DNA of 64,000 nucleotides. Origin: an uncultured Gammaproteobacteria bacterium (GTDB lineage Bacteria > Pseudomonadota > Gammaproteobacteria > Pseudomonadales > Cellvibrionaceae). A model generated the notes under the pieces. It made no database searches. It was not told the origin of the DNA and saw only the letters and a list, made by a program, of their open reading frames with translations. This document shows positions 45,941 through 61,233 of the stretch, in pieces. The stretch spans positions 8,850-72,849 of the forward strand of contig CBHTVU010000001.1 of assembly GCA_966096785.1 (NCBI GenBank), given 5' to 3'. Position 1 is the stretch's first letter. Every line of letters starts with the position of its first letter. The position numbers and the translations under genes were made by a program.

Positions 45941-46261
45941 ATGAAACCACTATTGTTATCCTTAACGCTACTGCTGTCGTGTAAATGCCTAACCGCCCAA
46001 ATCAAGTTACAAAAAGAGGAAGGCAAACCTATTATGATCTTACACAACGCGCCAGCCTATAAAATCATAGATACTGCCGCGAAGTATTTTAATTATCAGG
46101 TAGTTTATCGGTTTAATAAAGAACGTATCAATGATCCTTGGGCCGGAACAATGCCTTTGCAAAGTGTTGATAAGGTAATGACTGGTATTGCATATGCCCA
46201 GGATGGTTTATGTTACACTATAAAAAACAATAAACTAATTGTTGAATTGGTGGAAAATTGA
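45941..46261 (+). CDS. secreted protein resembling the C-terminal (STN/DUF4974-like) domain of FecR-type anti-sigma factors
   Basis: 106 aa. Signal peptide MKPLLLSLTLLLSCKCLTAQ. LHNAPAYKIIDTAAKYFNYQVVYRF...WAGTMPLQSVDKVMTGIAYAQDGLCYTIKNNKLIV follows the pattern I recall for Bacteroidota FecR C-termini (F.n.pL..vL..l...Y.v.i.f....ftg.f......vl..i......l.y.i.g..i.i). Confidence 0.4.
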   Translation: MKPLLLSLTLLLSCKCLTAQIKLQKEEGKPIMILHNAPAYKIIDTAAKYFNYQVVYRFNKERINDPWAGTMPLQSVDKVMTGIAYAQDGLCYTIKNNKLIVELVEN

Positions 46262-46266
46262 CAGTA

Positions 46267-47214
46267 ATGAAGCTCAACAAAAACTACAAAACCGCTCTAA
46301 TCTTAGTTCTTAAGTCAAAACAGTTTTTAGCATTAATAAAGGCTGCAAAATTATTTAAGTTCGCGAAGCCGTTTATTGCAATGATTTCTGTTGCTATTTC
46401 ACTGTTTGCTTATTCTTTAACATACAGCATTTCCCTAGCAATTGCCTTTATTATTTCTATGTTCGTTCATGAGCTTGGTCATGTGTATGCGATAAACAGA
46501 CTAGGGCTTAAAGCGGGCAGAATGATATTTATACCCTTTTTCGGAGCAATGGTCGGCGCGCCACCAGGCATGGACCGACGCCAAGAGGCCTATGTGGGTA
46601 TCGGTGGCCCATGGGCTGGAACTTTGTTAGCGCTACTGTTCATCGGATGTTATTTGGCCAGCCATAATACATGGTTCTTGCACACAGCTTATTTAGGGCT
46701 TCTTATTAACTTATTCAATATGATCCCTATAACCCCAATGGATGGTGGCCGCATTACACAAGCAATAGGTGGTTATTTCAATGTAATTGGGCTGGGATTG
46801 CTTGTGTTGCTTACCATTGCCTTAGGTAGCCCGTTGCTTTTACTGTTGTGGATTATAGCATTTTTGGATTTACAATGGCTTAATAAAACAACAAAGTTAA
46901 TCGCTGCGCTATTAACTGAAATTGTTTTGATTGTTATGTTATTTACTAAAACCGGCATAAACACTAAAATAGAATTTCGGGGCGTGGTCGTTGACATTAT
47001 CATTGGCGCGATTCTGATCACAGCATTTTATGTAAGCAATTTTTTATTGGATAAAGAAGATCAGGAGATAATTAACGAGCGCCACCAAAGACCAGCATTA
47101 GACCCCAAGGCAAAGATAAAATGGTTCATGGTTTGGTTACTAACGACACTATTTCTTTTGGGCGCAATTGGATGGCTGGTAGCATCAACAAACTTATCAC
47201 TGCATGTCAAATAA
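46267..47214 (+). CDS. site-2 protease family (peptidase M50) membrane metalloprotease
   Basis: ATG at 46267. Polytopic. HExxH in a TM helix (FVHELGHVYA, 46468-46482), then IPFFGA and NLFNMIPITPMDGGR (the NxxPxxxxDG motif). Confidence 0.8.
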   Translation: MKLNKNYKTALILVLKSKQFLALIKAAKLFKFAKPFIAMISVAISLFAYSLTYSISLAIAFIISMFVHELGHVYAINRLGLKAGRMIFIPFFGAMVGAPPGMDRRQEAYVGIGGPWAGTLLALLFIGCYLASHNTWFLHTAYLGLLINLFNMIPITPMDGGRITQAIGGYFNVIGLGLLVLLTIALGSPLLLLLWIIAFLDLQWLNKTTKLIAALLTEIVLIVMLFTKTGINTKIEFRGVVVDIIIGAILITAFYVSNFLLDKEDQEIINERHQRPALDPKAKIKWFMVWLLTTLFLLGAIGWLVASTNLSLHVK

Positions 47215-48241: not shown

Positions 48242-48497
48242 AATTAACAGTCGGCTTAAATCGTTGCGCATTAGTAAGACCGAGTTTGCAGCAATGGTAA
48301 AGGTTCCACCTTCTGCCGTATCAAAATGGCTGAGTGGGTCACATAACTTTACTATTGCAACACTTGTAGAGATACAAAGCGCTTTAATGATTAATTTTTT
48401 TGATCTGGGCGATAGCAAAAGTGATAAAGCTTGTTTCCCTTGCAATTATGAGTTTTGTATTTATGACAGCAAAACACAAGTACCATATTACATTTGA
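48210..48497 (+). CDS. XRE-family HTH protein
   Basis: 95 aa; RISKTEFAAMVKVPPSAVSKWLSGSHNFTIATLVEIQSAL. Confidence 0.6.
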   Translation: MKEISQQIANKINSRLKSLRISKTEFAAMVKVPPSAVSKWLSGSHNFTIATLVEIQSALMINFFDLGDSKSDKACFPCNYEFCIYDSKTQVPYYI

Positions 48498-49140
48498 AGA
48501 GCTGGCTATGCGGGGCGCGCAGGTCCTGGCAAAACAAGGTCCGGTAACTTATAAACAGGCATTAGCACAAATCAATAGAATTATGTCAAACAGCAAAGGT
48601 TATAACGCCTACGGCCAAATCTACCGCAACATTAAATCATGTGGCGACAATGCCCCCAAGCTCCAGCAGATCCTGGATGATCACATGAGCCTTTTTGTTA
48701 TGGCAAAAGGATCAACGCATAATCATCAGGCATGGCCAGGCGGCTATTTACAGCATGTTGCCGATTGTATGACCATAGCCAGGCGGTTGCTCAACAACAC
48801 TCCGCCCAGCTGGCCGGTACCGTTCTCCTTGGGCAGTGTTGTGCTCGTACTGTTCCTGCATGACATTGAGAAGCCATTTATGCAGAAGCGCATGGCAGCT
48901 GATCCTGAAATGCGATTATGGAGCGATCAACAGCGCATGGCGTTTAGAAGAAGCTTAATGGCTGAATACAAGATTGCTATTACAGAGGAAGAGGACATCG
49001 CACTTACCCATATACATGGCGAAGGAGGGGCTTATAGCAGCAAGCAGCGTGTCATGAACGAGCTGGGTGCCCTGTGCCATGCTGCTGACGTGCTAAGCTC
49101 CAGGTTGTGGTGGAATAGAAATAATCCGAAAAATATCTAA
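48463..49140 (+). CDS. HD-domain phosphohydrolase-like protein
   Basis: H...HD pattern (GGYLQHVADCM...VLVLFLHDIEKPF...HIHGEGG). The start is uncertain: ATG 48463 (35-nt overlap) or ATG 48508. Confidence 0.55.
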   Translation: MTAKHKYHITFEELAMRGAQVLAKQGPVTYKQALAQINRIMSNSKGYNAYGQIYRNIKSCGDNAPKLQQILDDHMSLFVMAKGSTHNHQAWPGGYLQHVADCMTIARRLLNNTPPSWPVPFSLGSVVLVLFLHDIEKPFMQKRMAADPEMRLWSDQQRMAFRRSLMAEYKIAITEEEDIALTHIHGEGGAYSSKQRVMNELGALCHAADVLSSRLWWNRNNPKNI

Positions 49141-49145
49141 TCATT

Positions 49146-49661
49146 ATGATCAAACACGTTCGCAACCTTGCACCAGAGCTTAGGGCCGCAATAAACACCA
49201 TACGCAGAGAACTGGCAACTGATGAGTTATATTTTAAAGCATGGCAATTTACCATGTCCAGGACGTTTCACAAAAAGATTACTGAATGGGCAGAAGCTCA
49301 AGGTGTTTCAGATAGCATCATGCAGGACAAGGAACACACGCTAAGTGATGTGTGTTTGCAGGCAGCTGCTGAGTATATAACTAAGTTTATAGGTGATATA
49401 AAGCAAGAGGATGAACGCGAATTGCTGTCCCCGCCTGGTGATCACATAAAAGAAACAATGAATGAGCTGGGCATAGATTTGCCATTGTTTGTCATTAAGA
49501 TGGGCATATCTGCCGAGGGCGCAAAAGATCTCTTAGATGGCAAAGCGCCGCTTACTGAAGCCATTGCCCGGCGGCTGGAGTTGACATTTAACACTGATGC
49601 CCAGTACTGGCTGAACCTGGAGACTAATTACCGGGAGAAATTACAACAACTAAACACTTAG
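49146..49661 (+). CDS. HigA/VapI-type antitoxin-like HTH protein with an N-terminal extension
   Basis: 171 aa. The C-terminal PPGDHIKETMNELGIDLPLFVIKMGISAEGAKDLLDGKAPLTEAIARRLELTFNTDAQYWLNLETNY matches the HigA antidote pattern. No HigB-like partner is adjacent. Confidence 0.6.
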   Translation: MIKHVRNLAPELRAAINTIRRELATDELYFKAWQFTMSRTFHKKITEWAEAQGVSDSIMQDKEHTLSDVCLQAAAEYITKFIGDIKQEDERELLSPPGDHIKETMNELGIDLPLFVIKMGISAEGAKDLLDGKAPLTEAIARRLELTFNTDAQYWLNLETNYREKLQQLNT

Positions 49662-50379: not shown

Positions 50380-50808
50380 ATGTACAAATACATACTAAGC
50401 TTAGTAACGCTTATTCCCGTGTACAGTCTTGCTCAAATGAACTCAGTACCCAGCTCTAACCCCATCGATAACCCCGCTAATAAAATGGCTATGGCGGTGC
50501 GCGCAACGGGTGCAAATATGGATATTAGCGTCCAGCAAGGCCCATGTTGCTTTGGCGATAAGGCTGCCGTTTTGTTTGTGGATTTAGGCAAGCTGCCGCC
50601 CGACCAATACAAAGACAAACAACTTAGGGACAGTATAATAAATGCCAGTAAGTTCTTATATATTGAAGACGCCTTGCAACAAGGCTGTCAAGAAGTGCGT
50701 TTCTTTATATCAAAGAAGGCCTTTTTGGGCGGCGCTGACAGCAGAACTTACACTGTTCTGCAGCTATTAGATGAAAGGCGTAAGGCCCGGTCCGCAATGA
50801 ACAAATAA
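50380..50808 (+). CDS. secreted hypothetical protein
   Basis: 142 aa with signal peptide MYKYILSLVTLIPVYSLAQ. Confidence 0.5.
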   Translation: MYKYILSLVTLIPVYSLAQMNSVPSSNPIDNPANKMAMAVRATGANMDISVQQGPCCFGDKAAVLFVDLGKLPPDQYKDKQLRDSIINASKFLYIEDALQQGCQEVRFFISKKAFLGGADSRTYTVLQLLDERRKARSAMNK

Positions 50809-50817: not shown

Positions 50818-51042
50818 ATGAGCCCGTTTGAGAATTTACTTGTCTGCTTGTTAGTATTGCTATACCTTATACTGAAGTTTTATATATGGCAGGCAAAATT
50901 ATTTGATAATATCCCCATAAGTGATACAAAGGAATGGATCTGGACGCTTCCCACAGGGTACGGCATGGCTATAACGTTCACAAACGTTGATGGCAAACGG
51001 GGCTGTTGGCGTATGGGCTTTTTTAGGATAAGAAAGCAATAG
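50818..51042 (+). CDS. small membrane protein
   Basis: 74 aa with an N-terminal TM (LLVCLLVLLYLILKFYIW). Confidence 0.4.
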   Translation: MSPFENLLVCLLVLLYLILKFYIWQAKLFDNIPISDTKEWIWTLPTGYGMAITFTNVDGKRGCWRMGFFRIRKQ

Positions 51043-51421: not shown

Positions 51422-52099
51422 ATGAAGCTGGCTCTTAAATTATCAGTTGCGCTCAATGTTCTATTTTTACTATTTTTTATTGGCAAACGTGTTTATTACA
51501 CTTATGGCGCTCCAGGCAAAGCTGCAGCGACGAATTACGAAGAAACAATATTCGCCAAAGCGTCTGTTCAAAACCAGCTGCCGATAGATAGCAATGATGT
51601 TGTATTTATTGGTAATTCTTTAACAGAAGGCTTTCCGGTCACAGAGTATTTTGCGAACGCAAAAAACCGTGGCGTCGGGGGCAGCGAAACCCGGCATGTA
51701 CTTGCCAGGATAGGCCCTATAGTAAATGGGCGCCCTAAGAAGATCTTTTTAGAAATAGGCGTAAATGACCTGGCTGCGGGGGTGTCTATAAATGACGCAT
51801 TGGCCAAATACAATACAATTATTAGCACCATTCAAACCCGGTCACCACGCACAGCTATATACATACAGTCCATTTTCCCAGTCTGCAAAGAGTATAGCAA
51901 CTTATTACCCGCTATCAAAGAATTTAATTCTAAGCTGGCACAACAGTATGGACATATTGCAGGAATTACATATTTGAATATTTACCCAAGCTTGGTTAAA
52001 AATAACAAATTAGACAGCGCACTAACGCATGATGGCATTCACTTAAACGCAAAAGGGTATCAAATATGGAAAAAGGAAATAGAACATGCAGTAAACTAA
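51422..52099 (+). CDS. SGNH/GDSL-family hydrolase (esterase), membrane-anchored or secreted
   Basis: 225 aa. N-terminal hydrophobic anchor. Block I VVFIGNSLTEG, block II GVGGSET, block III EIGVNDL, block V HDGIHLNAKGY. Confidence 0.8.
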   Translation: MKLALKLSVALNVLFLLFFIGKRVYYTYGAPGKAAATNYEETIFAKASVQNQLPIDSNDVVFIGNSLTEGFPVTEYFANAKNRGVGGSETRHVLARIGPIVNGRPKKIFLEIGVNDLAAGVSINDALAKYNTIISTIQTRSPRTAIYIQSIFPVCKEYSNLLPAIKEFNSKLAQQYGHIAGITYLNIYPSLVKNNKLDSALTHDGIHLNAKGYQIWKKEIEHAVN

Positions 52100-52114: not shown

Positions 52115-52339
52115 ATGGCAAAAATTAGCGCCCTAATCATCAAACAGCTATTTAAAATAATTACGCCTGAAGAGCGTAAAGAACTGGACAACTATGCCGC
52201 AGAGTCAGAAGAAAACAGGCAAATGGTCGAAAAATACACCGACGGTAAAAAGGTGCTGGAAGAGATTAAACTAAGCGAACAATTTTTAAATGAGGAAGAT
52301 TGGTTAAAGATTGAAGCCAATCTGCCCAAAAACACCTAA
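52115..52339 (+). CDS. FecR-N-terminal-like (anti-sigma domain-like) mini-protein, paralogue 1
   Basis: 74 aa. ISALIIKQLFKIITPEERKELDNYAAESEENRQMVEKY follows the Bacteroidota FecR N-terminal pattern (l..kyl.g.ls.eE...l..W...s.eN...f). No TM or periplasmic part. Confidence 0.5.
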   Translation: MAKISALIIKQLFKIITPEERKELDNYAAESEENRQMVEKYTDGKKVLEEIKLSEQFLNEEDWLKIEANLPKNT

Positions 52340-52361
52340 AGCAAAAACCCACCCCATCAAC

Positions 52362-52589
52362 ATGCAACGAATCAGTACGCTGATCATTAAATTACGCAAT
52401 AACGAGATTACGCCTGAGGAGCGTATAGAACTGGACGCCTTCGCAGCCCAGTCTGAAGACAATAAAAGATTGGTAGAAGACTATTCCAATTACAGCCATG
52501 TGCTAAAGGAAATAAAGGAATCAGATAAGTACCGTACAGAAGAAAACTGGCAAAGGGTTAAAGCAGGTCTGCCAAAGCCAGCTATGTAA
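52362..52589 (+). CDS. FecR-N-terminal-like mini-protein, paralogue 2
   Basis: ATG at 52362 (MQRISTLIIKLRNNEITPEERIELDAFAAQSEDNKRLVEDY...). Clearly paralogous to 52115..52339. Confidence 0.5.
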   Translation: MQRISTLIIKLRNNEITPEERIELDAFAAQSEDNKRLVEDYSNYSHVLKEIKESDKYRTEENWQRVKAGLPKPAM

Positions 52590-52652
52590 AGAAATGTTAG
52601 GAAATATGCGGCAAAACCCCGAGTTTAGACCAAAATAGTTAATACAAAGCCG

Positions 52653-52916
52653 ATGAGATTACAAATACCCGACTTCTCAATACCAGGACCCGATTGCTAC
52701 TTGACCGTAGATAAGAATAACGTACAGCTCAAAGTGGGCGATGTGGTACAAAGCTGCACGCTACCATTGCGGGGCCGGGAAAAGCGCACAGAACACTACC
52801 AACCCGTCAAAATGGTTGATGGCCACCTTGTTATACCGCATGCAGGATCACACCTGGTTGATATATTTGTTAAAACAGAATGCGAAATTGTAAAAAATAT
52901 CAGCAAACAAAGTTAA
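52653..52916 (+). CDS. hypothetical protein
   Basis: 87-aa ORF between paralogues 2 and 3. Confidence 0.45.
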   Translation: MRLQIPDFSIPGPDCYLTVDKNNVQLKVGDVVQSCTLPLRGREKRTEHYQPVKMVDGHLVIPHAGSHLVDIFVKTECEIVKNISKQS

Positions 52917-52974
52917 AATGCCGATCAGCCGTGTTTACTTATATGAGAGACTTCTAATTCATTAACGTAAACAC

Positions 52975-53205
52975 ATGATCAACATGAAAACCCGAATTGA
53001 GGAACTCCTGCTAAAAAGGCTGATGCAAATGCTTACTCCTGAAGAAGCCACCCAACTGGAAGACTTCAGAAACCAGTCCGAAGCTAACCGTGAACTGGTG
53101 GATAGCCTAAAGCCTGGCAAGAAGCTATATGACGCTGTAACGTGGAAGCTGGATGTTGAAGGGGCATTAGAAAAAACAAAACAAGAGCTGTTTGGCGACA
53201 GCTGA
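52975..53205 (+). CDS. FecR-N-terminal-like mini-protein, paralogue 3
   Basis: MINMKTRIEELLLKRLMQMLTPEEATQLEDFRNQSEANRELVDSL. A start at 52984 would align best with the other paralogues. Confidence 0.45.
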   Translation: MINMKTRIEELLLKRLMQMLTPEEATQLEDFRNQSEANRELVDSLKPGKKLYDAVTWKLDVEGALEKTKQELFGDS

Positions 53206-54033: not shown

Positions 54034-54201
54034 TCAAACTTATGTAATATATCTTATGTTAAATAGAATTTGCCTATCCCCTACCCTAGCATGATTGTCA
54101 ATTAATTACATATGCGCGCAGGAACGCATAACTAAGAACTTAGTCAATAATCCCCTCCGCTTTTCCTCCCGCTATACTTAATAATTCCCTATTTTGTAGT
54201 T

Positions 54202-55234: not shown

Positions 55235-55283
55235 CCCCATATAATATCGTTTATATGGGGTTTTGTGTTTATAAAACACTTAT
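55235..55283 (+). promoter_or_regulatory. hairpin + conserved box cassette EC01
   Basis: Stem CCCCATATA/TATATGGGG, then TTTTGTGTTTATAAAACACTTAT|ATG(55284). Confidence 0.6.
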
Positions 55284-55757
55284 ATGAAATTCTTTAATAA
55301 TTGCAAAACGCTTGAAGAGGTCAAAAAGCTGTACAAAAAGCTTGCATTAGAACACCATCCTGACAAGGGCGGCAATACAGAAACTATGCAAACGATAAAT
55401 ACTGAATATGCGTTTATATGTGCAAAGCTCTTAAAGGGTGAAAACCTAACGGATGAACAGATCAATGAAGAAATGAATTTATCTGAAGAACTTAGGCAAG
55501 CAATTGAGCAAATTATACATTTGCCGGGTATTACTATTGAGGTAGTTGGTTATTACATTTGGGTTACTGGTAACACCTACCCAGTAAGAAACGAATTAAA
55601 GAGCGCAAAGTTTGTTTATCATGGTACAAAAGAATGTTGGTATTATGCCAATGCAAAATTTAAAGTAAGAGGTGGTAAAAAAACATTAGAAGAAATAAAG
55701 GCTAAGTATGGCAGCGCGACTGTTCACAAGTTTAAAACCAGCAAGGAAATTAATTAG
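55284..55757 (+). CDS. J-domain (DnaJ-like) co-chaperone protein
   Basis: 157 aa. LEEVKKLYKKLALEHHPDKGGNTETMQTINTEYAFI contains the HPD motif. Confidence 0.85.
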   Translation: MKFFNNCKTLEEVKKLYKKLALEHHPDKGGNTETMQTINTEYAFICAKLLKGENLTDEQINEEMNLSEELRQAIEQIIHLPGITIEVVGYYIWVTGNTYPVRNELKSAKFVYHGTKECWYYANAKFKVRGGKKTLEEIKAKYGSATVHKFKTSKEIN

Positions 55758-55763
55758 CACAAA

Positions 55764-55805
55764 GCCCGCAATGTTGCGGGCTTTGTTATTATAAAACACT
55801 TGTAT
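55764..55805 (+). promoter_or_regulatory. cassette EC02
   Basis: Stem GCCCGCA/TGCGGGC, then TTTGTTATTATAAAACACTTGTAT|ATG(55806). Confidence 0.6.
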
Positions 55806-56063
55806 ATGTTGAACTATGATAAATTAATTGCACTCAACCCCACGGTGTATTCTAAGTTTACCAACTCATTAGGGCAAGAAATAGAGTTTGTTGAGCATCC
55901 AACTAAAGGAGAAGATTATCCCGTTATTTGCGTATGTCATGCCCTTAAACTTGCAGCGTGTAGTGACTTCTACGAAACGACTGATATGTTAGCCGATCAT
56001 AAGGAGTATGAACCTAAATTTATTGACGGTCAATTTTGGATTGGGAATTTCTTACACGAATAG
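55806..56063 (+). CDS. hypothetical protein
   Basis: ATG at the cassette-defined position (MLNYDKLIAL...). The track start at 55800 is a TTG inside the box. Confidence 0.55.
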   Translation: MLNYDKLIALNPTVYSKFTNSLGQEIEFVEHPTKGEDYPVICVCHALKLAACSDFYETTDMLADHKEYEPKFIDGQFWIGNFLHE

Positions 56064-56102
56064 GGCGCAATTTGCGCCCTATGTTATTTTAAAAACACTT
56101 AT
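56062..56102 (+). promoter_or_regulatory. cassette EC03
   Basis: Stem AGGGCGCA/TGCGCCCT, then ATGTTATTTTAAAAACACTTAT|ATG(56103). Confidence 0.6.
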
Positions 56103-56267
56103 ATGACTACAACAGAGCAGGAAATTGAATTAACGAAAATTCAATCAATAAATATTGCGGCTAAAGCGCTGGCGCAATCTGCGTTTTTGATAGGGGTTTC
56201 TTTAGACGTGCTGTTGCCTATGGCAACCGCATTAGCAGAAAAAGAGTTAATAAAACTAAAAGGGTAG
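56103..56267 (+). CDS. hypothetical small protein (54 aa)
   Basis: MTTTEQEIELTKIQSINIAAKALAQSAFLIGVSLDVLLPMATALAEKELIKLKG. Framed by cassettes EC03 and EC04; below the track cutoff. Confidence 0.45.
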   Translation: MTTTEQEIELTKIQSINIAAKALAQSAFLIGVSLDVLLPMATALAEKELIKLKG

Positions 56268-56304
56268 CAATTATGCTACCCTTTGTTATTTATAAAACAC
56301 TTAT
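56262..56304 (+). promoter_or_regulatory. cassette EC04
   Basis: Stem GGGTAGCA/TGCTACCC (covers the preceding stop), then TTTGTTATTTATAAAACACTTAT|ATG(56305). Confidence 0.6.
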
Positions 56305-56391
56305 ATGAATCGTACTATCATGATCAATTTAGCTATTACAGTACTTGTTGTTTCTGCTAACATATTAGCACAGGTTGTACGGCATTTATAG
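56305..56391 (+). CDS. possible 28-aa hydrophobic micro-protein
   Basis: MNRTIMINLAITVLVVSANILAQVVRHL, with the ATG at the exact cassette position. Confidence 0.3.
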   Translation: MNRTIMINLAITVLVVSANILAQVVRHL

Positions 56392-56429
56392 TTGCAGTCA
56401 TGCACTCATTACGCAGTATAACACAGGAA

Positions 56430-56472
56430 CCCGGCTCAATGCCGGGTTTTGTTATTTATAAAAACACTTATT
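56430..56472 (+). promoter_or_regulatory. cassette EC05
   Basis: Stem CCCGGC/GCCGGG, then TTTTGTTATTTATAAAAACACTTATT|ATG(56473). Confidence 0.6.
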
Positions 56473-56748
56473 ATGCCTATAACATTTAATACGGGCGGGT
56501 ATTCGTATTGCACCATTGTACAGGATGCGATCGGTTGCCTGCATATCTGGGAGGGACAATGTATACCTACAAATAACCCAACATTGCCTAAAGTTGATGG
56601 CAATGAGTGTGATTTGTTTATAGAAAATGAATCGGATGTTAAGAACACGTTAGAGTATTTAACGGATGACGAAAGGGAATATATAAATAAAGGGTTCGCA
56701 ATACAGGTAAAAACTATTCCCGACGATTTATTGCTAAAAGATTATTAG
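56473..56748 (+). CDS. hypothetical protein
   Basis: MPITFNTGGYSYC... The track extension from 56449 reads through the box. Confidence 0.55.
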   Translation: MPITFNTGGYSYCTIVQDAIGCLHIWEGQCIPTNNPTLPKVDGNECDLFIENESDVKNTLEYLTDDEREYINKGFAIQVKTIPDDLLLKDY

Positions 56749-56780
56749 AACGGTCTCAGGATAAACAGAAGTACAAACAA

Positions 56781-56827
56781 CCCTACGCATGTCTATGCGT
56801 GGGGTTTTGTATTTATAAAACACTTAT
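56781..56827 (+). promoter_or_regulatory. cassette EC06
   Basis: Stem CCCTACGCAT/ATGCGTGGGG with loop GTCT, then TTTTGTATTTATAAAACACTTAT|ATG(56828). Confidence 0.6.
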
Positions 56828-57022
56828 ATGAATATTGAACAGATAAAGGCTAATTTACCAAAAAACATGCATGAAATAGACCGTAAGGAATACCTACGGT
56901 TACATAAACGTATAATTGAGATTGAAACAACCGGGTATAATAAACATGAATTGGAACCATTGCGTAACAGTGCCTTTAATATTATTAATCCATATATTTT
57001 AGATAGTAATTACAAAGGATAG
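56828..57022 (+). CDS. hypothetical protein
   Basis: 64-aa ORF framed by cassettes. Confidence 0.55.
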   Translation: MNIEQIKANLPKNMHEIDRKEYLRLHKRIIEIETTGYNKHELEPLRNSAFNIINPYILDSNYKG

Positions 57023-57058
57023 GGGCCATTTGGCCCTTTTTTATTTAAAAACACTTAT
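57023..57058 (+). promoter_or_regulatory. cassette EC07
   Basis: Stem GGGCC/GGCCC, then TTTTTTATTTAAAAACACTTAT|ATG(57059). Confidence 0.55.
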
Positions 57059-57310
57059 ATGAAATACGGCTTCAGCATAGTGAACACAATGCGCACTTAT
57101 AGCATTGAATTACGTGAACGCAATTACCCGGTATTTGCGGGTAGATACAATGCATATATGGCGGTTTATGGGCCGTTAAGCGGCGAATATATGGGCTTAA
57201 TTGAAACGCCTATAAAATTAGATATTACAGAAAATGATGTACCTGAGTTGCTGCTGAATGGAGAAAAGTTTGTAAAAGATAATGCATGTTGCAAGGTATC
57301 GGTTTGGTAA
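57059..57310 (+). CDS. hypothetical protein
   Basis: 83-aa ORF framed by cassettes. Confidence 0.55.
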   Translation: MKYGFSIVNTMRTYSIELRERNYPVFAGRYNAYMAVYGPLSGEYMGLIETPIKLDITENDVPELLLNGEKFVKDNACCKVSVW

Positions 57311-57345
57311 ATAATTGACGGTTTTTTAGCAGGTAGTACAAACAA

Positions 57346-57392
57346 CCCTATACATTTCTATGTGTGGGGTTTTGTTATTTAAAAACACTTGT
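57346..57392 (+). promoter_or_regulatory. cassette EC08
   Basis: Stem CCCTATACAT/ATGTGTGGGG (two G-U pairs), then TTTTGTTATTTAAAAACACTTGT|ATG(57393). The 5' flank GTACAAACAA is shared with EC06. Confidence 0.6.
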
Positions 57393-57593
57393 ATGAATAT
57401 GCCATATTTCAAACCGGGGTTATTACATCTTATTTTTGAGAATGAAACCGGTGAACAATTTATAGATGTAAATGGTTACCCTACTTTACAGTTAGCAGAA
57501 GTTGCAGCCGAATATTATAAACGCGGTAGATTTAGAATGTCAGGTTCAATAGTGGTAGGAGTTTATATTTGTCAGACAATTAAGCCCGCCTAA
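57393..57593 (+). CDS. hypothetical protein
   Basis: MNMPYFKPGLLHLIF... The track extension from 57360 lies inside the hairpin and box. Confidence 0.55.
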   Translation: MNMPYFKPGLLHLIFENETGEQFIDVNGYPTLQLAEVAAEYYKRGRFRMSGSIVVGVYICQTIKPA

Positions 57594-57625
57594 TTGGCGG
57601 GCTTTTGTATTATAAAAACACTAAA
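57584..57625 (+). promoter_or_regulatory. cassette EC09
   Basis: Stem GCCCGCC/GGCGGGC, then TTTTGTATTATAAAAACACTAAA|ATG(57626). Confidence 0.6.
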
Positions 57626-57883
57626 ATGATCACAATCTATAATTGGCATGAACCAACCACATCCTTAAGCCGCTGTAAGCCTATAGAGTGCAACAATACA
57701 ATGTCATTGGCCCGCTCATTTAGCCAAATAGGCAAGGCAAAGCTGGACAGCTCAATTGTTAGTATAACCCTTAAAGACGAAAACACGGGTAAAACTATAC
57801 GTATTGAATTTGATAATGAGGCAAGGAAAAAAATATTGGAATGGTTTAATATTGAACAGGAAATAGCAAAAGCCCGCGTTTAG
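57626..57883 (+). CDS. hypothetical protein
   Basis: MITIYNWHEPTTS... Start set by the cassette. Confidence 0.55.
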   Translation: MITIYNWHEPTTSLSRCKPIECNNTMSLARSFSQIGKAKLDSSIVSITLKDENTGKTIRIEFDNEARKKILEWFNIEQEIAKARV

Positions 57884-57910
57884 CGGGCTTTTGCTATTAT
57901 AAACACTTAT
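57871..57910 (+). promoter_or_regulatory. cassette EC10
   Basis: Stem AGCCCGC/GCGGGCT (the preceding stop lies in the hairpin), then TTTGCTATTATAAACACTTAT|ATG(57911). Confidence 0.6.
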
Positions 57911-58186
57911 ATGAAGTACATTTTTTTGTTACTGTTAGCATTCAACAGCACTAAAGGCATTGCACAAGATAAAAAGCCTATAGTACAATGCAAAGGAACT
58001 ACAGTGAAAGGCGTGCAATGTATGCGCAAAGCAAAGGAAGGCACAAAGGACAACGCTTATTGCAGCCAACACAACCTTGACGCGCCGCGCTGCGCAGGTC
58101 ATACTGGCAGCGGTGTGCGCTGTAAAAGAATAGTCGCAAAGGAAGGGGATAAATGTCATGACCACGTTTTTCAAAAACGCGCATAA
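57911..58186 (+). CDS. secreted Cys/His-repeat (putative zinc-binding) protein
   Basis: 91 aa. Signal-like N-terminus and two repeats: GVQCMRKAKEGTKDNAYCSQH and GVRCKRIVAKEGDKCHDH. Confidence 0.5.
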   Translation: MKYIFLLLLAFNSTKGIAQDKKPIVQCKGTTVKGVQCMRKAKEGTKDNAYCSQHNLDAPRCAGHTGSGVRCKRIVAKEGDKCHDHVFQKRA

Positions 58187-58208
58187 TCACCAGCTGAAAC
58201 CACATGAA

Positions 58209-58254
58209 CCCCGAACAGTGTTCGGGGTTTTGCTATTTATAAAACACTAGCAAA
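58209..58254 (+). promoter_or_regulatory. cassette EC11
   Basis: Stem CCCCGAA/TTCGGGG, then TTTTGCTATTTATAAAACACTAGCAAA|ATG(58255). Confidence 0.6.
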
Positions 58255-58719
58255 ATGAATACAGAAATTAAAACAGTAAGTGATAAGCAATATCAAGTAA
58301 CAAACACAGGTACTTACTACCATATTGAAACAAATTTGCAGGTTATAGAAGTACTTGAACAATGTCGCCTAAATAATACACGCATTCGCTTATTTTTAGG
58401 CGATACAATAACCGGTAAAGTATGGCCTGAACTTCACGATGTAACAGGCTACGTCAGTCGTTCAACGGGCGTTGTAAAGGTGCCAATTCTGCGTTATAAT
58501 AGTATTGCTGTTGGTGGTGGCGCAATACTTGATCATTGCATCATGAAAATAAGCGATACCAAAGGCAACGTATTGTATAAGGCTGGTAATTATAAGGAGC
58601 CGGTAATTGAGATAAAAGGCAATGAGGCGCAAGGCATACAGGTAATTTATGATAACGAACCGATTGCAAACTGTAAAACATTAAAAGAGGCGAACAAACT
58701 AAAAGAACAATTACTTTAA
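58255..58719 (+). CDS. hypothetical protein
   Basis: 154-aa ORF framed by cassettes. Confidence 0.6.
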   Translation: MNTEIKTVSDKQYQVTNTGTYYHIETNLQVIEVLEQCRLNNTRIRLFLGDTITGKVWPELHDVTGYVSRSTGVVKVPILRYNSIAVGGGAILDHCIMKISDTKGNVLYKAGNYKEPVIEIKGNEAQGIQVIYDNEPIANCKTLKEANKLKEQLL

Positions 58720-58757
58720 CCCCCGTAATGGGGGTTTTTGCTTTATAAAACACTTAT
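58719..58757 (+). promoter_or_regulatory. cassette EC12
   Basis: Stem CCCCC/GGGGG with loop GTAAT, then TTTTTGCTTTATAAAACACTTAT|ATG(58758). Confidence 0.6.
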
Positions 58758-59024
58758 ATGAAGCGCAAACATGATTTAATAATCTTTGCAATCTTTGCCG
58801 CCTTGGTGGTAGGGATAATGCTAGGGGCCAAAGGACAACAGGCCATACACAGCCGCAATTGTCCGGTTGCACCTGTAACTCTTACGAATATACTAGCAAG
58901 TAAGGATTATCAAATACAATGTAGTATTGATTCAGTATATGTATTTGATAACAACAGGCTAATAGGCGCTACTTTGTGGGGTAAAGATGGTATTGATTCA
59001 TTGATCTTAAAGGACAACGAATGA
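58758..59024 (+). CDS. small membrane-anchored protein
   Basis: 88 aa with an N-terminal TM (LIIFAIFAALVVGIMLGA). Confidence 0.55.
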   Translation: MKRKHDLIIFAIFAALVVGIMLGAKGQQAIHSRNCPVAPVTLTNILASKDYQIQCSIDSVYVFDNNRLIGATLWGKDGIDSLILKDNE

Positions 59025-59092
59025 AGCCCTACACAGTCGCGCTCCTGTTGCGCCTTGTCTGGTATGCAGTACTGATCTATTGTATTGCTTAA
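59021..59092 (+). CDS. possible 23-aa hydrophobic micro-protein
   Basis: MKPYTVALLLRLVWYAVLIYCIA. ATGA overlap with the upstream stop; its own stop abuts the EC13 hairpin. Confidence 0.25.
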   Translation: MKPYTVALLLRLVWYAVLIYCIA

Positions 59093-59130
59093 CCCCCGTT
59101 TGGGGGTTTTGTTATTTTAAAAACACTTAT
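59093..59130 (+). promoter_or_regulatory. cassette EC13
   Basis: Stem CCCCC/GGGGG with loop GTTT, then TTTTGTTATTTTAAAAACACTTAT|ATG(59131). Confidence 0.6.
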
Positions 59131-59703
59131 ATGAAATCAATACTAGATAAGACTAATGAAGCTCCCGCTAATACATTGCAATTTGGCAAGTTTAATGTCA
59201 ATACTTCCGCGCAAGCAATGACATTAATCGCTTATAGCGACGTACCACATTTGCACACATCTAACATTCCTTTCAGGCAGCTACAGTATGTTGCAGAATG
59301 TGAGAATTTTATCGACTTCTGCGCATGTTTGCGCATTATTCGCGGCTATAATGGTTTTGAAGCGGAAGAGGTTATTAAAAAAGGAACGCCACACTTTAAC
59401 ATTAAACGCTGGTATCCTAAAGGCAACGGCAATCATGGTATGAACATGTTTAACTTTCAGATTGCCCGCGAATATTCTGCTACCTTTTATATTCGATACG
59501 TTACACTGTTTAACAACAATAAGTTAATAGAGGTAGAAGGGGAGTATGGCGATTGTGAAGAGTTTACCCCAAATGATTTTGAGGATACAATGTTGTGTCT
59601 TAAGCATTTACTAAAACCTAGCGAATTTAATATTGAAAAATTGCCGTATGAGTTTCAAGGGCAAACACAATACTCTTATAGTGTGCGCTTTTGCTGGACT
59701 TAA
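59131..59703 (+). CDS. hypothetical protein
   Basis: MKSILDKTNEAPANTLQFG... The track extension from 59080 reads through the hairpin. Confidence 0.6.
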   Translation: MKSILDKTNEAPANTLQFGKFNVNTSAQAMTLIAYSDVPHLHTSNIPFRQLQYVAECENFIDFCACLRIIRGYNGFEAEEVIKKGTPHFNIKRWYPKGNGNHGMNMFNFQIAREYSATFYIRYVTLFNNNKLIEVEGEYGDCEEFTPNDFEDTMLCLKHLLKPSEFNIEKLPYEFQGQTQYSYSVRFCWT

Positions 59704-59714
59704 ACAACTTAGAA

Positions 59715-59766
59715 CCCCGTTGCAGTAATGCGCGGGGTTTTTGTTATTATAAAAACACTTAAACAT
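59715..59766 (+). promoter_or_regulatory. cassette EC14
   Basis: Imperfect stem CCCCGTTGCA../..TGCGCGGGG, then TTTTTGTTATTATAAAAACACTTAAACAT|ATG(59767). Confidence 0.55.
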
Positions 59767-60507
59767 ATGCAACAGGAAATCAATGGTAAATTTTTGATAT
59801 GTAACGGGTCAATTAATGCCACACTGACAATTGACGAATTGCTACAATTCAATGAAGATAATAAACGTACCGCTTTACGGTATTTTCAAATTGAAGGCCA
59901 ATATCGCCAGATCAATTCGGAAATTGATAGCAGTGTTTTTAAACCTATGCAGGAACTATATACTTATGAGACGTTAATGCAACTATCAGGCTCCGAACTT
60001 GATTTAGCACTAACAAAGGTTTACAATAACTTACAGCAACATGAAGCCCAATTGCAAGTCGCAACTAATAGGCTACATTATGATTTAGGTAAAAAGATAC
60101 ATGCGGCGACCATAGACTTAAAATTCTCCGGGGAGCTTAAATTAACCAAAGGGCAATTGTTGGGGTTTATTGATGCGATAGGTAACTGGAACGACTTTAG
60201 GGCAAATAAAGTCGCAAAAGCAATTAATTACCTACATGCCAGCGCGCCCCGTGTGAATTATGGTAATAATAATCCCAATACAGGGCGCTTGTGGCATGAA
60301 TGGTGCATTGCAGGTGATTCGATTTATATGAAATTTGGACTTTGTAATAGCGAAGCGCTGGCCACTATAAAGAATTGGTTTAACACAATTACAAATGTAA
60401 AAAGCATGGCCGGTGCGGATTCCTTTGAATTACATGTGCAGGAAATTCAAAACGAATATTCAAAAGACCAATGTTATATTGTAACCGTTGAATTATGGTG
60501 GGATTAA
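59767..60507 (+). CDS. hypothetical protein
   Basis: MQQEINGKFLICNG... 246 aa. Confidence 0.6.
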   Translation: MQQEINGKFLICNGSINATLTIDELLQFNEDNKRTALRYFQIEGQYRQINSEIDSSVFKPMQELYTYETLMQLSGSELDLALTKVYNNLQQHEAQLQVATNRLHYDLGKKIHAATIDLKFSGELKLTKGQLLGFIDAIGNWNDFRANKVAKAINYLHASAPRVNYGNNNPNTGRLWHEWCIAGDSIYMKFGLCNSEALATIKNWFNTITNVKSMAGADSFELHVQEIQNEYSKDQCYIVTVELWWD

Positions 60508-60525
60508 AGTTAGAGCCGTACAAAA

Positions 60526-60576
60526 CCCCGTTGCAACCAGTTTGCAACGGGGTTTTGTTATTATAAAAACACTTAT
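60526..60576 (+). promoter_or_regulatory. cassette EC15
   Basis: Perfect 11-bp stem CCCCGTTGCAA/TTGCAACGGGG, then TTTTGTTATTATAAAAACACTTAT|ATG(60577). Confidence 0.65.
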
Positions 60577-61233
60577 ATGAATACTTACAGTAAATACGTT
60601 GCTAACGTATTCTTAGCGAAATGCACAGAAAAGCACGAAAAAGGCGCAACCATTCCCGTTACTACTAAATATGGGAAAGAGAACGAATGTATTGTATTTA
60701 ACCTCATTTACGAAAAAGACGGTTATTACTATTACTCTATCATTCGCGCCGATGGGTTTAATTATCAAACCTGGGCGCAAAATAGAGCAGATCGCCGTCG
60801 TAGTTGGGCTGCAAGCGCTGAAAACAAGTCAGACGAATACTATCAGCGCTCTAACAAAGATCGCGCTTTCCTTAGCCTGGGTGAACCAATCAAAATTGGC
60901 CATCACAGCGAAAAAGGGCACCGTAAAATTATTGACCAGCAATGGGCAAACATGGGCAAAAGCGTTGCATATTCCAAAAAGGCAGAAGCTCATGAAAGTG
61001 TGGCTGAATTTTGGGAACGCAAAGCGAAGGATATTAACTTGTCCATGCCAGATAGCGCAGAATTTTTTACCTACAAGCTTGAGCTTGCTAATGCACACCA
61101 CCAGGAATTGAAAACAGACCCAAGCAAAAGAAGACATTCTATGTCGTTGCAGTACGCTAAAAAAGATGTTAATGAGTTGCAGAAAAAAGTAGCTTTAGCA
61201 CATAAGCTATGGGGAGATGTTGAGGAAAAATAG
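60577..61233 (+). CDS. DUF3560-like protein
   Basis: 218 aa. LSLGEPIKIGHHSEKGHRKIIDQQWANMGKSVAYSKKAEAHESVAEFWERKA matches my recollection of the DUF3560 core (GQPILVGHHSE..HR...), a family seen on plasmids and phages. Confidence 0.5.
   Translation: MNTYSKYVANVFLAKCTEKHEKGATIPVTTKYGKENECIVFNLIYEKDGYYYYSIIRADGFNYQTWAQNRADRRRSWAASAENKSDEYYQRSNKDRAFLSLGEPIKIGHHSEKGHRKIIDQQWANMGKSVAYSKKAEAHESVAEFWERKAKDINLSMPDSAEFFTYKLELANAHHQELKTDPSKRRHSMSLQYAKKDVNELQKKVALAHKLWGDVEEK

What the first reader, a model, noticed from the sequence alone, without database searches (positions are those of the whole stretch)
52115..53205. Three paralogous ~75-aa proteins resembling the cytoplasmic N-domain of FecR-type anti-sigma factors, with no TM or periplasmic part
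Seen: ORFs 52115..52339, 52362..52589 and 52975..53205 are clear paralogues:
- ISALIIKQLFKIITPEERKELDNYAAESEENRQMVEKY
- ISTLIIKLRNNEITPEERIELDAFAAQSEDNKRLVEDY
- IEELLLKRLMQMLTPEEATQLEDFRNQSEANRELVDSL

The pattern (l..kyl.g.lt.eE...l..w...s.eN..lv) is what I recall at the extreme N-terminus of the many Bacteroidota FecR-family anti-sigma factors. That is the part that contacts the cognate ECF sigma factor.

Established knowledge: in the E. coli Fec system the isolated cytoplasmic FecR fragment is enough to switch on FecI-dependent transcription constitutively. In Bacteroidota, FecR/ECF pairs control SusC-like TonB-dependent transporter loci.

Inference: the phage may carry soluble sigma-binding decoys that either silence or constitutively activate host ECF regulons, for example surface transporters that could serve as receptors or nutrient gates. 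I am not aware of a described phage system of this kind.
Basis: partly seen in the sequence, partly recalled or inferred. Interest (0 to 1): 0.85.

Follow-up and report, generated by a model that had tools for sequence, protein, structure and literature searches.

The report
Phage copies of FecR sigma-binding domain
A Bacteroidota phage carries three small soluble proteins that are clear homologues of only the cytoplasmic, sigma-factor-binding tip of its host's FecR-type membrane sensors, which suggests that it tampers with the host switches controlling nutrient-transporter and surface genes; I found no report of a phage doing this.

Summary
ORFs 52115-52339, 52362-52589 and 52984(52975)-53205 are intact paralogues with no hydrophobic segment. 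An exhaustive HMMER search with their profile gave 170 hits. The ten longest tested all carry Pfam FecR + FecR_C, and the match covers their first ~75 residues, ending just before the membrane helix. Paralogues 1 and 2 are 55-58% identical to the N-domain of FecR P0004. Paralogue 3 is 51% identical to that of FecR P0011. So two N-domain lineages are present.

The AlphaFold model has a confident three-helix core. Its few PDB matches are non-significant, but 8 of 11 are ECF anti-sigma domains, including PupR.

No ECF sigma gene is detectable in the window, with good positive controls. The likely partners are therefore host FecI-like sigma factors. A related phage fragment carries a homologue. 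Stand-alone N-domains also occur in bacterial "split FecR" loci.

Unexpectedly, the phage also encodes an intact M50 site-2 protease (46258-47214). This is the protease class that cleaves FecR. Next to it lies a lipoprotein-like, sub-threshold FecR_C-like protein (45941-46261).

The function is inferred, and the direction (silencing or activation) is unresolved. I found no prior description. Verdict: real, a new variant of phage anti-sigma or host mimicry, interest about 0.7.

The parts
52115..52339 (+). Paralogue 1: 74-aa soluble stand-alone FecR N-domain (sigma-binding domain homologue)
   Evidence: Intact ORF. Scores E = 3e-20 against the full-length FecR HMM, positions 6-77. 58% identical to the N-domain of FecR P0004. 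No TM segment. Starts 15 nt after the SGNH hydrolase gene.
52362..52589 (+). Paralogue 2: 75-aa soluble stand-alone FecR N-domain
   Evidence: 58% identity over 71 aa with residues 1-71 of the 330-aa FecR P0004, E = 4e-28. AF2 model: residues 1-42 form three helices at pLDDT 84-91. Its PDB fold matches are dominated by ECF anti-sigma domains.
52984..53205 (+). Paralogue 3: 73-aa soluble stand-alone FecR N-domain of a second lineage (alternative start at 52975)
   Evidence: 51% identity over 72 aa with residues 1-72 of the 389-aa FecR P0011, E = 4e-20. 49% identity with stand-alone P0010, which lies on a related phage fragment.
52653..52916 (+). orf87: orphan 87-aa gene lying between paralogues 2 and 3, function unknown
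   Evidence: Same direction as its neighbours, with gaps of 63 and 58-67 nt. Only a sub-threshold MoeA_C hit. No PHROG or PADLOC hit.
51422..52099 (+). Membrane-anchored SGNH/GDSL hydrolase immediately upstream of paralogue 1; a likely envelope-modifying accessory gene in the same co-directional gene run
   Evidence: Pfam Lipase_GDSL_2, E = 2.7e-21. phrog_14008, E = 3e-28. Hydrophobic N-terminus seen in the translation.
46258..47214 (+). M50 site-2 protease with no PDZ domain and intact catalytic motifs. Context gene; its link to the FecR fragments is tentative
   Evidence: Pfam Peptidase_M50 at 45.3 bits, above the cut-off of 27.2. HELGH at residues 71-75 and NMIPITPMDGG. These residues are invariant in six phage homologues. 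Conserved in the related phage contigs L007, L008 and L009.
45941..46261 (+). 106-aa secreted, lipoprotein-like protein with a FecR_C-like domain (tentative). Overlaps the M50 gene start by 4 nt
   Evidence: Pfam FecR_C, E = 7e-4, 20.0 bits, below the cut-off of 24.4, but covering profile positions 2-70 of 70. My own FecR HMM gives E = 0.003. hhalign probability 52%, against at most 1.7% for 72 size-matched window ORFs. The same design occurs in L007:5351-5644 and L004:775-1191.

Best explanation
The three genes encode soluble, stand-alone copies of the cytoplasmic sigma-binding N-domain of Bacteroidota FecR-type transmembrane sigma regulators. They end exactly where the membrane helix of the full-length protein would begin. 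In size and content they correspond to the N-terminal fragment that regulated intramembrane proteolysis releases from FecR.

During infection they would bind host FecI-like ECF sigma factors. At least two specificities are expected: the partners of P0004-like and of P0011-like FecRs. They have no periplasmic sensor and no membrane anchor, so the binding would be blind to the envelope signal.

My committed reading is that they act as non-releasable anti-sigma factors. They would sequester those sigmas and shut down the cognate SusC-like/TonB-dependent transporter regulons, and possibly the capsule regulons. That would remodel the cell surface, for example to block superinfection or to stop progeny adsorbing to doomed cells.

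**Shown:** homology, domain boundaries, solubility, two lineages, absence of a detectable phage sigma in the window, and conservation in a related phage.

**Inferred:** sigma binding (about 0.7 likely in either direction), host rather than phage targets, and the inhibitory direction.
For: **Homology and boundaries**
-.
- In 65 long relatives the domain ends at about residue 75 and the TM helix starts at residues 74-109, mostly 80-100.
- A profile built only from the three phage proteins hits 6 of 3,021 ORFs in 80 named Bacteroidota loci. All six are 376-399-aa ORFs matched at their N-termini.

**Fold**
- Confident three-helix core.
- 8 of the 11 PDB matches are ECF anti-sigma domains (RsiW, MucA, RslA, PupR), mostly at rmsd 2.4-3.3 A.
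- The viral structure library gives only noise.

**Domain function in the family**
- In B. thetaiotaomicron, anti-sigma N-domains bind the cognate ECF sigma in 5 of 5 pairs tested, and a non-cognate sigma in 4 of 20 (PMC2709373).
- The FpvR N-fragment inhibits its sigma factors (PMC9249621).

**No phage partner found**
- No Sigma70 Pfam hit in 46 window ORFs.
- An ECF-sigma HMM built from the 80 loci gives a best window E of 0.28. Two divergent control sigmas score 1e-22 and 5e-18.

**Cellular relatives are canonical**
- The closest full-length relatives lie in sigma / FecR / SusC-like loci.

**Selection**
- Three intact copies keep the family's conserved positions L7, E20 and L24.
- A homologue sits in a syntenic fragment of a related phage.

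**Neighbourhood**
- The adjacent genes are envelope-directed accessory genes: a membrane SGNH hydrolase and a predicted signal-peptide-bearing 142-aa protein (50380-50808).
Against: - No binding or expression data exist.
- The direction is uncertain. E. coli FecR1-85 activates FecI. A B. thetaiotaomicron anti-sigma truncation designed to keep the N-domain gave constitutive PUL expression.
- The phage's own M50 site-2 protease would, if it cleaves host FecR, push towards activation.
- The Foldseek E-values are not significant (3.4-8.9). The C-terminal two helices of the model have low confidence.
- About 15 kb of the 79-kb contig could not be inspected for a sigma gene. Phage sigma factors can also be too divergent to detect (PMC7826278).
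- The related phage contig L007 lacks these genes, so they are accessory.
Confidence: 0.4

Rival explanations
1. Pro-sigma mimics. The proteins bind the same host ECF sigma factors but activate them, as the RseP-generated FecR fragment does in E. coli. Transporter/PUL regulons would then be switched on constitutively, for nutrient or iron import or for surface change. The phage M50 site-2 protease and the periplasmic FecR_C-like decoy might act in concert to strip host FecRs from their transducers.
For: - FecR1-85 is about the size of the RseP product and activates FecI constitutively (PMC9249621).
- A BT1052 truncation expected to retain the N-domain gave constitutive PUL expression (PMC2709373).
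- The phage encodes an intact M50 protease and a FecR_C-like secreted protein.
- FecR_C-only and N-only genes are adjacent in L004 and L005.
- TonB-dependent transducers protect the anti-sigma factor from proteolysis (title and abstract of PMC11637429).
Against: - The BT1052 result is equally explained by simple loss of anti-sigma function.
- Pro-sigma activity is the exception among anti-sigma domains. The FpvR fragment inhibits.
- The M50 gene occurs in related phages with no detectable FecR fragment: L008, L009 and L092. The three-part link is therefore not general.
- The FecR_C assignment of ORF 45941 is below threshold.
Confidence: 0.3
2. The proteins are cognate regulators of a phage-encoded sigma factor, either divergent or encoded in the unseen part of the contig. 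On this reading they time phage gene expression and do not target host sigmas.
For: - About 15 kb of the contig could not be examined.
- Phage sigma factors are often too divergent for standard models (PMC7826278).
- The P0004 sigma/FecR pair sits among genes with no Pfam hit, so it could be on a mobile element.
Against: - No sigma-like ORF is found in 64 kb by Pfam or by a dedicated ECF HMM and hhalign, both with sensitive positive controls.
- The candidate late promoters look like the Bacteroidota primary-sigma type, -33 TTTG / -7 TAnnTTTG, and not the ECF type.
- Each paralogue is closer to a full-length FecR than to the other phage lineage. That fits mimicry of host proteins.
Confidence: 0.08
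3. The proteins are captured gene fragments with no sigma-related role. They would be either decaying remnants of host FecR genes or small helical proteins re-used for some other purpose.
For: - They are accessory: absent from the L007 stretch that corresponds to this region.
- No homologue in 50,697 GenBank phage records or in IMG/VR.
- No functional data.
Against: - Three intact ORFs all stop precisely at the domain boundary.
- The family's conserved positions are retained.
- A 49%-identical intact homologue lies in a syntenic fragment of a related phage.
- Intact stand-alone N-domain genes recur in bacterial loci and as tandem two- and three-domain proteins.
- The cluster's GC content equals that of the phage, 42.1% against 41.7%, so it is not a fresh capture.
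Confidence: 0.15

Closest known systems
N-terminal cytoplasmic fragment of E. coli FecR (FecR1-85, about the size of the RseP cleavage product), and the N-fragments of Pseudomonas FpvR, FoxR and FiuR
   Same: It is the same part of the same protein architecture: a cytoplasmic sigma-binding domain of about 50-85 residues without membrane or periplasmic parts. On its own it suffices to act on the cognate FecI-like sigma (PMC9249621).
   Different: Those fragments are made by proteolysis or by genetic engineering from a full-length cellular protein. Here the fragment is a separate gene, in three copies, on a phage. Sequence similarity to the proteobacterial N-domain family (Pfam DUF4880) is not detectable. 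The direction of action (pro- or anti-sigma) is unknown here.
Bacteroidota FecR-type anti-sigma factors of trans-envelope signalling systems (for example B. thetaiotaomicron BT1052; here P0004, P0011, P0009)
   Same: Clear sequence homology over the whole N-domain: 51-58% identity, E = 4e-20 to 4e-28. In B. thetaiotaomicron anti-sigma factors of this type, the N-domain binds the cognate ECF sigma.
   Different: The phage proteins lack the TM helix, the FecR domain (PF04773) and FecR_C (PF16344). They are not next to a sigma or a SusC-like gene. They therefore cannot sense or relay the transporter signal.
Known phage anti-sigma factors (T4 AsiA and others) - comparison from my own knowledge
   Same: Small phage-encoded proteins that bind a host sigma factor to redirect transcription.
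   Different: Those target the primary sigma factor and are unrelated folds invented by phages. These proteins are homologues of a host anti-sigma domain and would target alternative ECF sigmas. They match no annotated phage family: only a weak hit of paralogue 2 to phrog_2910, of unknown function.
Class I anti-sigma domains solved with ECF sigmas (RsiW-SigW 5wuq, MucA-AlgU 8z6g/6in7, RslA-SigL 3hug) and the PupR cytoplasmic domain 5cos
   Same: The predicted helical core superposes on these at TM about 0.43-0.53 normalised to the query, mostly at rmsd 2.4-3.3 A over 45-52 columns. They make up 8 of the 11 PDB matches.
   Different: The E-values are not significant. There is no zinc-binding HxxxCxxC motif; none of the three proteins contains a cysteine. 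The fourth and fifth helices are predicted with low confidence.
Bacterial 'split FecR' loci and stand-alone N-domain proteins (L002 with P0012; L004 and L005 with P0013; tandem-domain P0016 and P0020)
   Same: N-domain-only proteins of about 74 aa, 33-45% identical by BLASTP to the phage copies. Some are paired with a separately encoded secreted FecR_C-containing protein.
   Different: In L002 the stand-alone domain lies in a cellular locus with its own ECF sigma and SusD-like genes. It is presumably the normal regulator of that sigma, not a trans-acting mimic. As far as I could find, these are undescribed too.

Membership tests
FecR-family transmembrane sigma regulator (Bacteroidota type) | N-terminal cytoplasmic sigma-binding domain homologous to the family's | tested here: met
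   The profile of the three proteins gives 170 hits. All ten long hits tested are PF04773 + PF16344 proteins matched at residues ~1-75. Pairwise E = 4e-28 and 4e-20. A full-length FecR HMM hits the three ORFs at E = 2e-15 to 4e-23.
FecR-family transmembrane sigma regulator (Bacteroidota type) | Single transmembrane helix after the N-domain | tested here: not met
   The proteins end at residues 73-75. The highest 19-residue hydropathy mean is below 0.9, against 1.5-3.1 for the helix at residues ~80-100 in 65 full-length relatives.
FecR-family transmembrane sigma regulator (Bacteroidota type) | Periplasmic FecR domain (PF04773) and FecR_C (PF16344) | tested here: not met
   No such Pfam hit in the three ORFs even at E up to 10. 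Only a separate ORF, 45941-46261, has a sub-threshold FecR_C match.
FecR-family transmembrane sigma regulator (Bacteroidota type) | Encoded next to a cognate ECF sigma gene, usually with a TonB-dependent transducer | tested here: not met
   The 80 Bacteroidota FecR loci contain 80 sigma ORFs. In the window the best score against that sigma HMM is E = 0.28. No Sigma70 Pfam hit in 46 ORFs. The unseen 15 kb of the contig was not tested.
Class I anti-sigma domain (ASD) fold | Helical bundle superposable on solved ASD-sigma complexes | tested here: inconclusive
   AF2 gives three confident helices. Eight of the 11 PDB matches are ASDs (RsiW, MucA, RslA, PupR) at TM about 0.43-0.53 normalised to the query, but E = 3.4-8.9.
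Class I anti-sigma domain (ASD) fold | Physical binding to sigma regions 2 and 4 of an ECF sigma | not testable with these tools
   No complex prediction or experiment was available. The only precedent is the family literature (PMC2709373; PMC9249621).
Zinc-binding anti-sigma (ZAS) subclass | HxxxCxxC zinc motif | tested here: not met
   None of the three sequences contains a cysteine (translations).
Pfam DUF4880 (PF16220, N-terminal domain of proteobacterial FecR) | Match to the family HMM | tested here: not met
   Not listed for any of the three proteins at E up to 10. Only a 'faint' precomputed hit on the tandem-domain relative P0016.
Described phage protein families, including phage anti-sigma factors | Match to a Pfam or PHROG family of known function | tested here: not met
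   No significant Pfam hit. Only phrog_2910, of unknown function, at E = 0.002 for paralogue 2. No tblastn match in 50,697 phage records.
Peptidase M50 (site-2 protease), for ORF 46258-47214 | HExxH and NxxPxxxxDG zinc-ligand motifs in a polytopic membrane protein; Pfam score above threshold | tested here: met
   45.3 bits against a cut-off of 27.2. HELGH at residues 71-75 and NMIPITPMDGG. Invariant across six homologues. No PDZ domain was detected, so it is not of the RseP architecture.
FecR_C (PF16344), for ORF 45941-46261 | Match to the family HMM above the curated threshold | tested here: inconclusive
   20.0 bits against a cut-off of 24.4, covering the full profile. hhalign probability 52%, against at most 1.7% for controls. 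The single-sequence AF2 model was unusable at pLDDT 42.

The most novel reading that the evidence does not exclude
The phage carries a three-level toolkit against host trans-envelope (TonB-dependent transducer / FecR / ECF sigma) signalling:
- cytoplasmic N-domain mimics of at least two host FecRs, which capture or activate their sigma factors;
- a periplasmic lipoprotein decoy of the FecR C-terminal domain, which competes for the transducer's signalling domain;
- a PDZ-less site-2 protease, which cleaves host FecR membrane helices without needing the signal.

Together these would let the virus take over the switches that control SusC-like transporters and, as in B. thetaiotaomicron, capsule loci. 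Those are the surface structures that govern nutrient uptake and phage adsorption.
Probability: 0.15. Interest if true: 0.9.

Novelty: new variant of a known kind. Interest (0 to 1): 0.72.

Why it matters
Bacteroidota encode on average about 22 ECF sigma factors per genome (PMC7826278). Many are wired through FecR-type sensors to SusC-like transporters. In B. thetaiotaomicron these systems also change capsule expression (PMC2709373).

A phage that encodes domain-only mimics of specific host anti-sigma factors would be a new way for viruses to reprogram alternative-sigma regulons. Known phage anti-sigma factors act on the housekeeping sigma (my own knowledge). Such a phage would directly link infection to nutrient-uptake and cell-surface phenotypes in soil, aquatic and gut Bacteroidota.

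These natural, minimal, soluble N-domains also make an open question testable. They occur in phages, in bacterial "split FecR" loci and as tandem repeats. With them one can ask whether the Bacteroidota FecR N-domain is an inhibitor or a pro-sigma activator, and what sets its specificity. They could also serve as orthogonal tools to switch individual PULs off or on.

Tried and rejected
- **Pfam, NCBIfam, PHROG and PADLOC scans of the three proteins.** Nothing significant. This was uninformative, because no curated model covers the Bacteroidota FecR N-domain.
- **Word-indexed search of 5.8 billion proteins.** It returned only the window's own proteins. The exhaustive HMMER search was needed.
- **PDB sequence search with the N-domain profile.** No relevant hit. 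With full-length FecRs it finds only periplasmic domains: 4m0n, 4m0h and PupR 6ovk.
- **Related loci.** Searches of IMG/VR, GTDB genomes with the N-domain, JGI metagenomes and GenBank phages found no homologues of the small proteins.
- **Rest of the 79-kb contig.** Attempts to fetch it and check for a sigma gene failed.
- **ORF 45941.** Single-sequence AF2 gave pLDDT 42, unusable. It shows no BLASTP similarity to the FecR_C-only protein of L004. It is an orphan in the word-indexed search.
- **General M50 / FecR-fragment co-occurrence.** Rejected. Only the window and L007 have both. L008, L009 and L092 show none in the DNA available.
- **Phage using a host ECF sigma for its own late genes.** No support. 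The conserved upstream elements look like primary-sigma promoters. Generic sigma-70 promoter and terminator scans around the cluster were at chance level.
- **Defence or anti-defence island.** No PADLOC hits.
Full report
**1.

The three ORFs are at the stated coordinates and the quoted peptides are exact.
- Paralogues 1 and 2 share 51% identity over 72 residues (E = 2e-24).
- Paralogue 3 is more distant: 43% over 37 residues with paralogue 2 (E = 1e-7).
- None has a hydrophobic stretch or a Pfam FecR or FecR_C domain.
- A full-length FecR HMM run against all 374 window ORFs of at least 40 aa picks out exactly these three as N-domain matches.
- The third gene most likely starts at 52984 (MKTRIEE...), as its homologues and the database gene call do.

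**2. What the window is**

The window is part of a phage genome. It has a portal gene (9922-12225) and a large terminase gene (12222-14237) by PHROG. The nearest terminases, at 27-29% identity, belong mostly to phages of Flavobacterium, Cellulophaga and other Bacteroidota hosts. Structural genes lie on the minus strand up to about 30 kb. A long run of small plus-strand genes follows.

The cluster reads: membrane-anchored SGNH hydrolase (51422-52099), paralogue 1, paralogue 2, orphan orf87, paralogue 3. All point the same way, with gaps of 15-67 nt. Generic promoter and terminator scans here are at chance level.

**3. The homology is real and precise**

Curated libraries gave nothing, and the word-indexed search found only the window's own proteins. 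The exhaustive HMMER search of 1.84 billion representatives with the three-protein profile gave 170 hits at E up to 1e-3.
- The ten longest tested all carry PF04773 (FecR) and PF16344 (FecR_C). The match covers their first ~70 residues.
- In 65 hits of at least 300 aa, the matched domain ends near residue 75 and the TM helix starts at residues 74-109, mostly 80-100. The phage proteins therefore stop exactly at the cytoplasmic-domain boundary.
- Paralogue 2 is 58% identical (E = 4e-28) to residues 1-71 of the 330-aa FecR P0004. That gene follows an ECF sigma gene.
- Paralogue 3 is 51% identical (E = 4e-20) to residues 1-72 of the 389-aa FecR P0011.
- Paralogues 1 and 2 are each closer to P0004 (58% and 55%) than to each other (50%). 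Paralogue 3 groups with P0011, P0010 and P0013. Two N-domain lineages, and so probably two specificities, sit side by side.

As an independent test I fetched 80 genome loci holding relatives of P0004. Seventy-nine are labelled Bacteroidota, and the closest are Chitinophaga, Pseudopedobacter and Sphingobacterium. The phage-only profile hits 6 of their 3,021 ORFs. All six are 376-399-aa ORFs matched at the N-terminus.

**4. Structure**

An AF2 model of paralogue 2, built with a 99-sequence alignment, has a confident three-helix core (residues 1-42, pLDDT 84-91) and two low-confidence C-terminal helices. No PDB match is statistically significant. Even so, 8 of the 11 listed are cytoplasmic anti-sigma domains from ECF sigma complexes (RsiW, MucA, RslA) or the cytoplasmic domain of the FecR-family protein PupR. 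Most are at rmsd 2.4-3.3 A. The viral structure library returns only heterogeneous noise. This agrees with a class I anti-sigma-domain-like fold but does not prove it. There is no zinc motif.

**5. Who is the partner?**

No sigma factor is detectable in the window.
- Forty-six ORFs of at least 100 aa give no Sigma70 Pfam hit.
- An ECF-sigma HMM built from the 80 sigma ORFs found in the 80 FecR loci gives a best window E of 0.28, on an HTH protein. Two divergent control sigmas score 1e-22 and 5e-18.
- The close full-length relative P0009 lies in a canonical sigma / FecR / SusC-like locus on a bacterial contig.

Host FecI-like ECF sigmas are therefore the most economical targets. Two caveats apply. 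About 15 kb of the 79-kb contig could not be retrieved. Phage sigmas can also be very divergent (PMC7826278).

**6. Relatives of the stand-alone form**

- P0010 (49% identical to paralogue 3) lies on a 1.7-kb contig whose flanking ORFs are homologous to window ORFs 48400-49140 and 50818-51042. It is a fragment of a related phage.
- P0013 sits immediately downstream of a 138-aa lipoprotein-like protein that passes Pfam's FecR_C threshold.
- P0012 lies in a Bacteroidota locus with three separate components:
  - an ECF sigma;
  - a secreted STN + FecR + FecR_C protein that lacks the N-domain;
  - the stand-alone N-domain.

  I call this arrangement a "split FecR".
- Soluble proteins with two or three tandem N-domains also exist.
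- No homologue was found in 50,697 GenBank phage records, in IMG/VR, or in GTDB genomes with the N-domain query.
- The related phage contig L007 shares at least ten early genes with the window but lacks N-domain genes. In this phage group they are accessory.

**7. Unexpected context in the window**

ORF 46258-47214 is an M50 site-2 protease. It scores 45 bits against a cut-off of 27, and has HELGH and NMIPITPMDGG motifs that are invariant in six homologues. It has no PDZ domain.
- This is the protease class whose E. coli member RseP cuts FecR in the membrane to release the active N-fragment (PMC9249621).
- It is conserved in the related phage contigs L007, L008 and L009, and in one IMG/VR contig.
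- It is rare in deposited phages: 2 of 50,697 records, and no PHROG family.

Overlapping its start by 4 nt, ORF 45941-46261 encodes a lipoprotein-like signal peptide (LLSC) followed by a FecR_C-like domain.
- Pfam gives E = 7e-4, below threshold but covering the full profile.
- My own FecR HMM gives E = 0.003.
- hhalign gives a probability of 52%, against at most 1.7% for 72 control ORFs.
- L007 has a protein of the same design, at hhalign probability 81%.
- A single-sequence structure prediction failed.

The M50 gene occurs without detectable FecR fragments in L008, L009 and L092. A functional link is possible but not established.

**8. Mechanism**

*Established by others*
- In B. thetaiotaomicron, anti-sigma N-domains bind their cognate ECF sigma, and C-domains bind the N-terminal transducing domain of the SusC-like transporter.
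- A truncation designed to keep the N-domain gave constitutive PUL expression.
- ECF de-repression also changes capsule loci.
- In E. coli, FecR1-85 activates FecI. The FpvR N-fragment inhibits its sigmas.

*Inference*
- The phage proteins bind host FecI-like sigmas regardless of the envelope signal. I put this at about 0.7.
- The direction is open. I lean towards sequestration (0.4), for three reasons:
  - inhibition is the default behaviour of anti-sigma domains;
  - the neighbouring genes look envelope-directed;
  - receptor or surface down-regulation is a familiar phage strategy (my own knowledge).
- The pro-sigma alternative (0.3) is serious. It is the reading that would fit together with the M50 protease and a periplasmic FecR_C decoy.
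- I also tested whether the phage might use a host ECF sigma for its own late genes. The conserved elements upstream of three structural operons (AAGTCAATCCGCTTTTTGG ... CCTATAGTTTAGG) look like Bacteroidota primary-sigma promoters, so this idea gets no support.

**9. Comparison and novelty**

The proteins are homologous to one domain of FecR-family regulators. They fail every other defining feature of that family: TM helix, periplasmic domains and sigma adjacency. They are not FecR proteins. [quoted passage not shown]

Known phage anti-sigma factors target the primary sigma and are unrelated (my own knowledge). Full-text searches found no report of phage-encoded FecR fragments, phage ECF-directed anti-sigmas or Bacteroidota phage site-2 proteases.

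I rate it a new variant of a known kind (phage anti-sigma or host-mimic regulators), with interest 0.72. The homology is solid. The function is plausible, specific and directly testable.

Noticed in passing
window 46258-47214 (+): An intact M50 site-2 protease gene with HELGH and NMIPITPMDGG motifs and no PDZ domain. It is conserved in the related phage contigs L007, L008, L009 and L092. It matches only 2 of 50,697 GenBank phage records and no PHROG family. It belongs to the protease class that cleaves FecR-type regulators.
   Followed up: partly
window 45941-46261 (+); L007:5351-5644; L004:775-1191: Small proteins with a lipoprotein-like signal peptide (Cys after LLS, LIG or LLTCAG) followed by a FecR_C-like domain. 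hhalign probabilities are 52%, 81% and 94%. The L004 copy passes the Pfam threshold and sits next to a stand-alone N-domain gene.
   Followed up: partly
window 55268-60580 (+): The 20-nt element TTTATAAAACACTTATATGA occurs 8 times with at most 3 mismatches, against 0 expected in 100 shuffles. Each copy ends in ATG(A); where checked (55284, 60577) this is the start codon of a gene. It may be a conserved leader, a translation-initiation element or a promoter-proximal element of a gene set.
   Followed up: no
window 9907-9915, 14278-14286, 29447-29455 (-); 54156-54164 (+): A conserved element, AAGTCAATCCGCTTTTTGG, then about 20 nt, then CCTATAGTTTAGG, lies about 40 nt upstream of three structural-module operons. 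A partial copy lies upstream of 54202. It looks like a Bacteroidota -33 TTTG / -7 TAnnTTTG promoter with an extra upstream box, and is a candidate phage late promoter.
   Followed up: partly
L002:6189-10225: A bacterial 'split FecR' locus. It holds an ECF sigma, a secreted 391-aa STN + FecR + FecR_C protein without an N-domain, two unknown genes, and then a stand-alone 74-aa N-domain (P0012), near SusD-like and SusC-like genes.
   Followed up: partly
proteins P0016, P0026, P0027, P0031, P0034, P0035, P0077, P0135 (about 130-140 aa) and P0020 (182 aa); L006:58-480: Soluble proteins made of two or three tandem FecR N-domains with no TM segment. P0016 lies next to a PemK toxin gene and an N6_Mtase fragment. 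Their function is unknown.
   Followed up: no
window 51422-52099 (+): A membrane-anchored SGNH/GDSL hydrolase (Pfam E = 2.7e-21) lies 15 nt upstream of paralogue 1. It may modify the envelope or a receptor. Nearby are a 142-aa protein with a signal-peptide-like N-terminus (50380-50808) and a hydrophobic 74-aa protein (50818-51042); the latter is conserved in related phage fragment L001.
   Followed up: no
window 52653-52916 (+): An orphan 87-aa ORF lies between paralogues 2 and 3. It has only a sub-threshold MoeA_C hit (20.5 bits against 22.1) and no PHROG or PADLOC match.
   Followed up: no
contig of P0004 (JGI sample 3300071325, 10.4 kb; no DNA available): The closest full-length FecR and its divergent ECF sigma are flanked by five genes with no Pfam hit and by an HTH gene on the opposite strand. 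It could be a mobile element or phage rather than a chromosome. Unresolved.
   Followed up: no
window 55284-55757 (+), 37318-38163 (+), 49146-49661 (+): Other accessory genes: a DnaJ-domain protein (phrog_15863), a NinI-like Ser/Thr phosphatase (phrog_246) and an HTH antitoxin-like protein (phrog_1381). The Pfam sweep also flagged Cpn10, Glycos_transf_2 and DUF3560 ORFs, which I did not locate.
   Followed up: no
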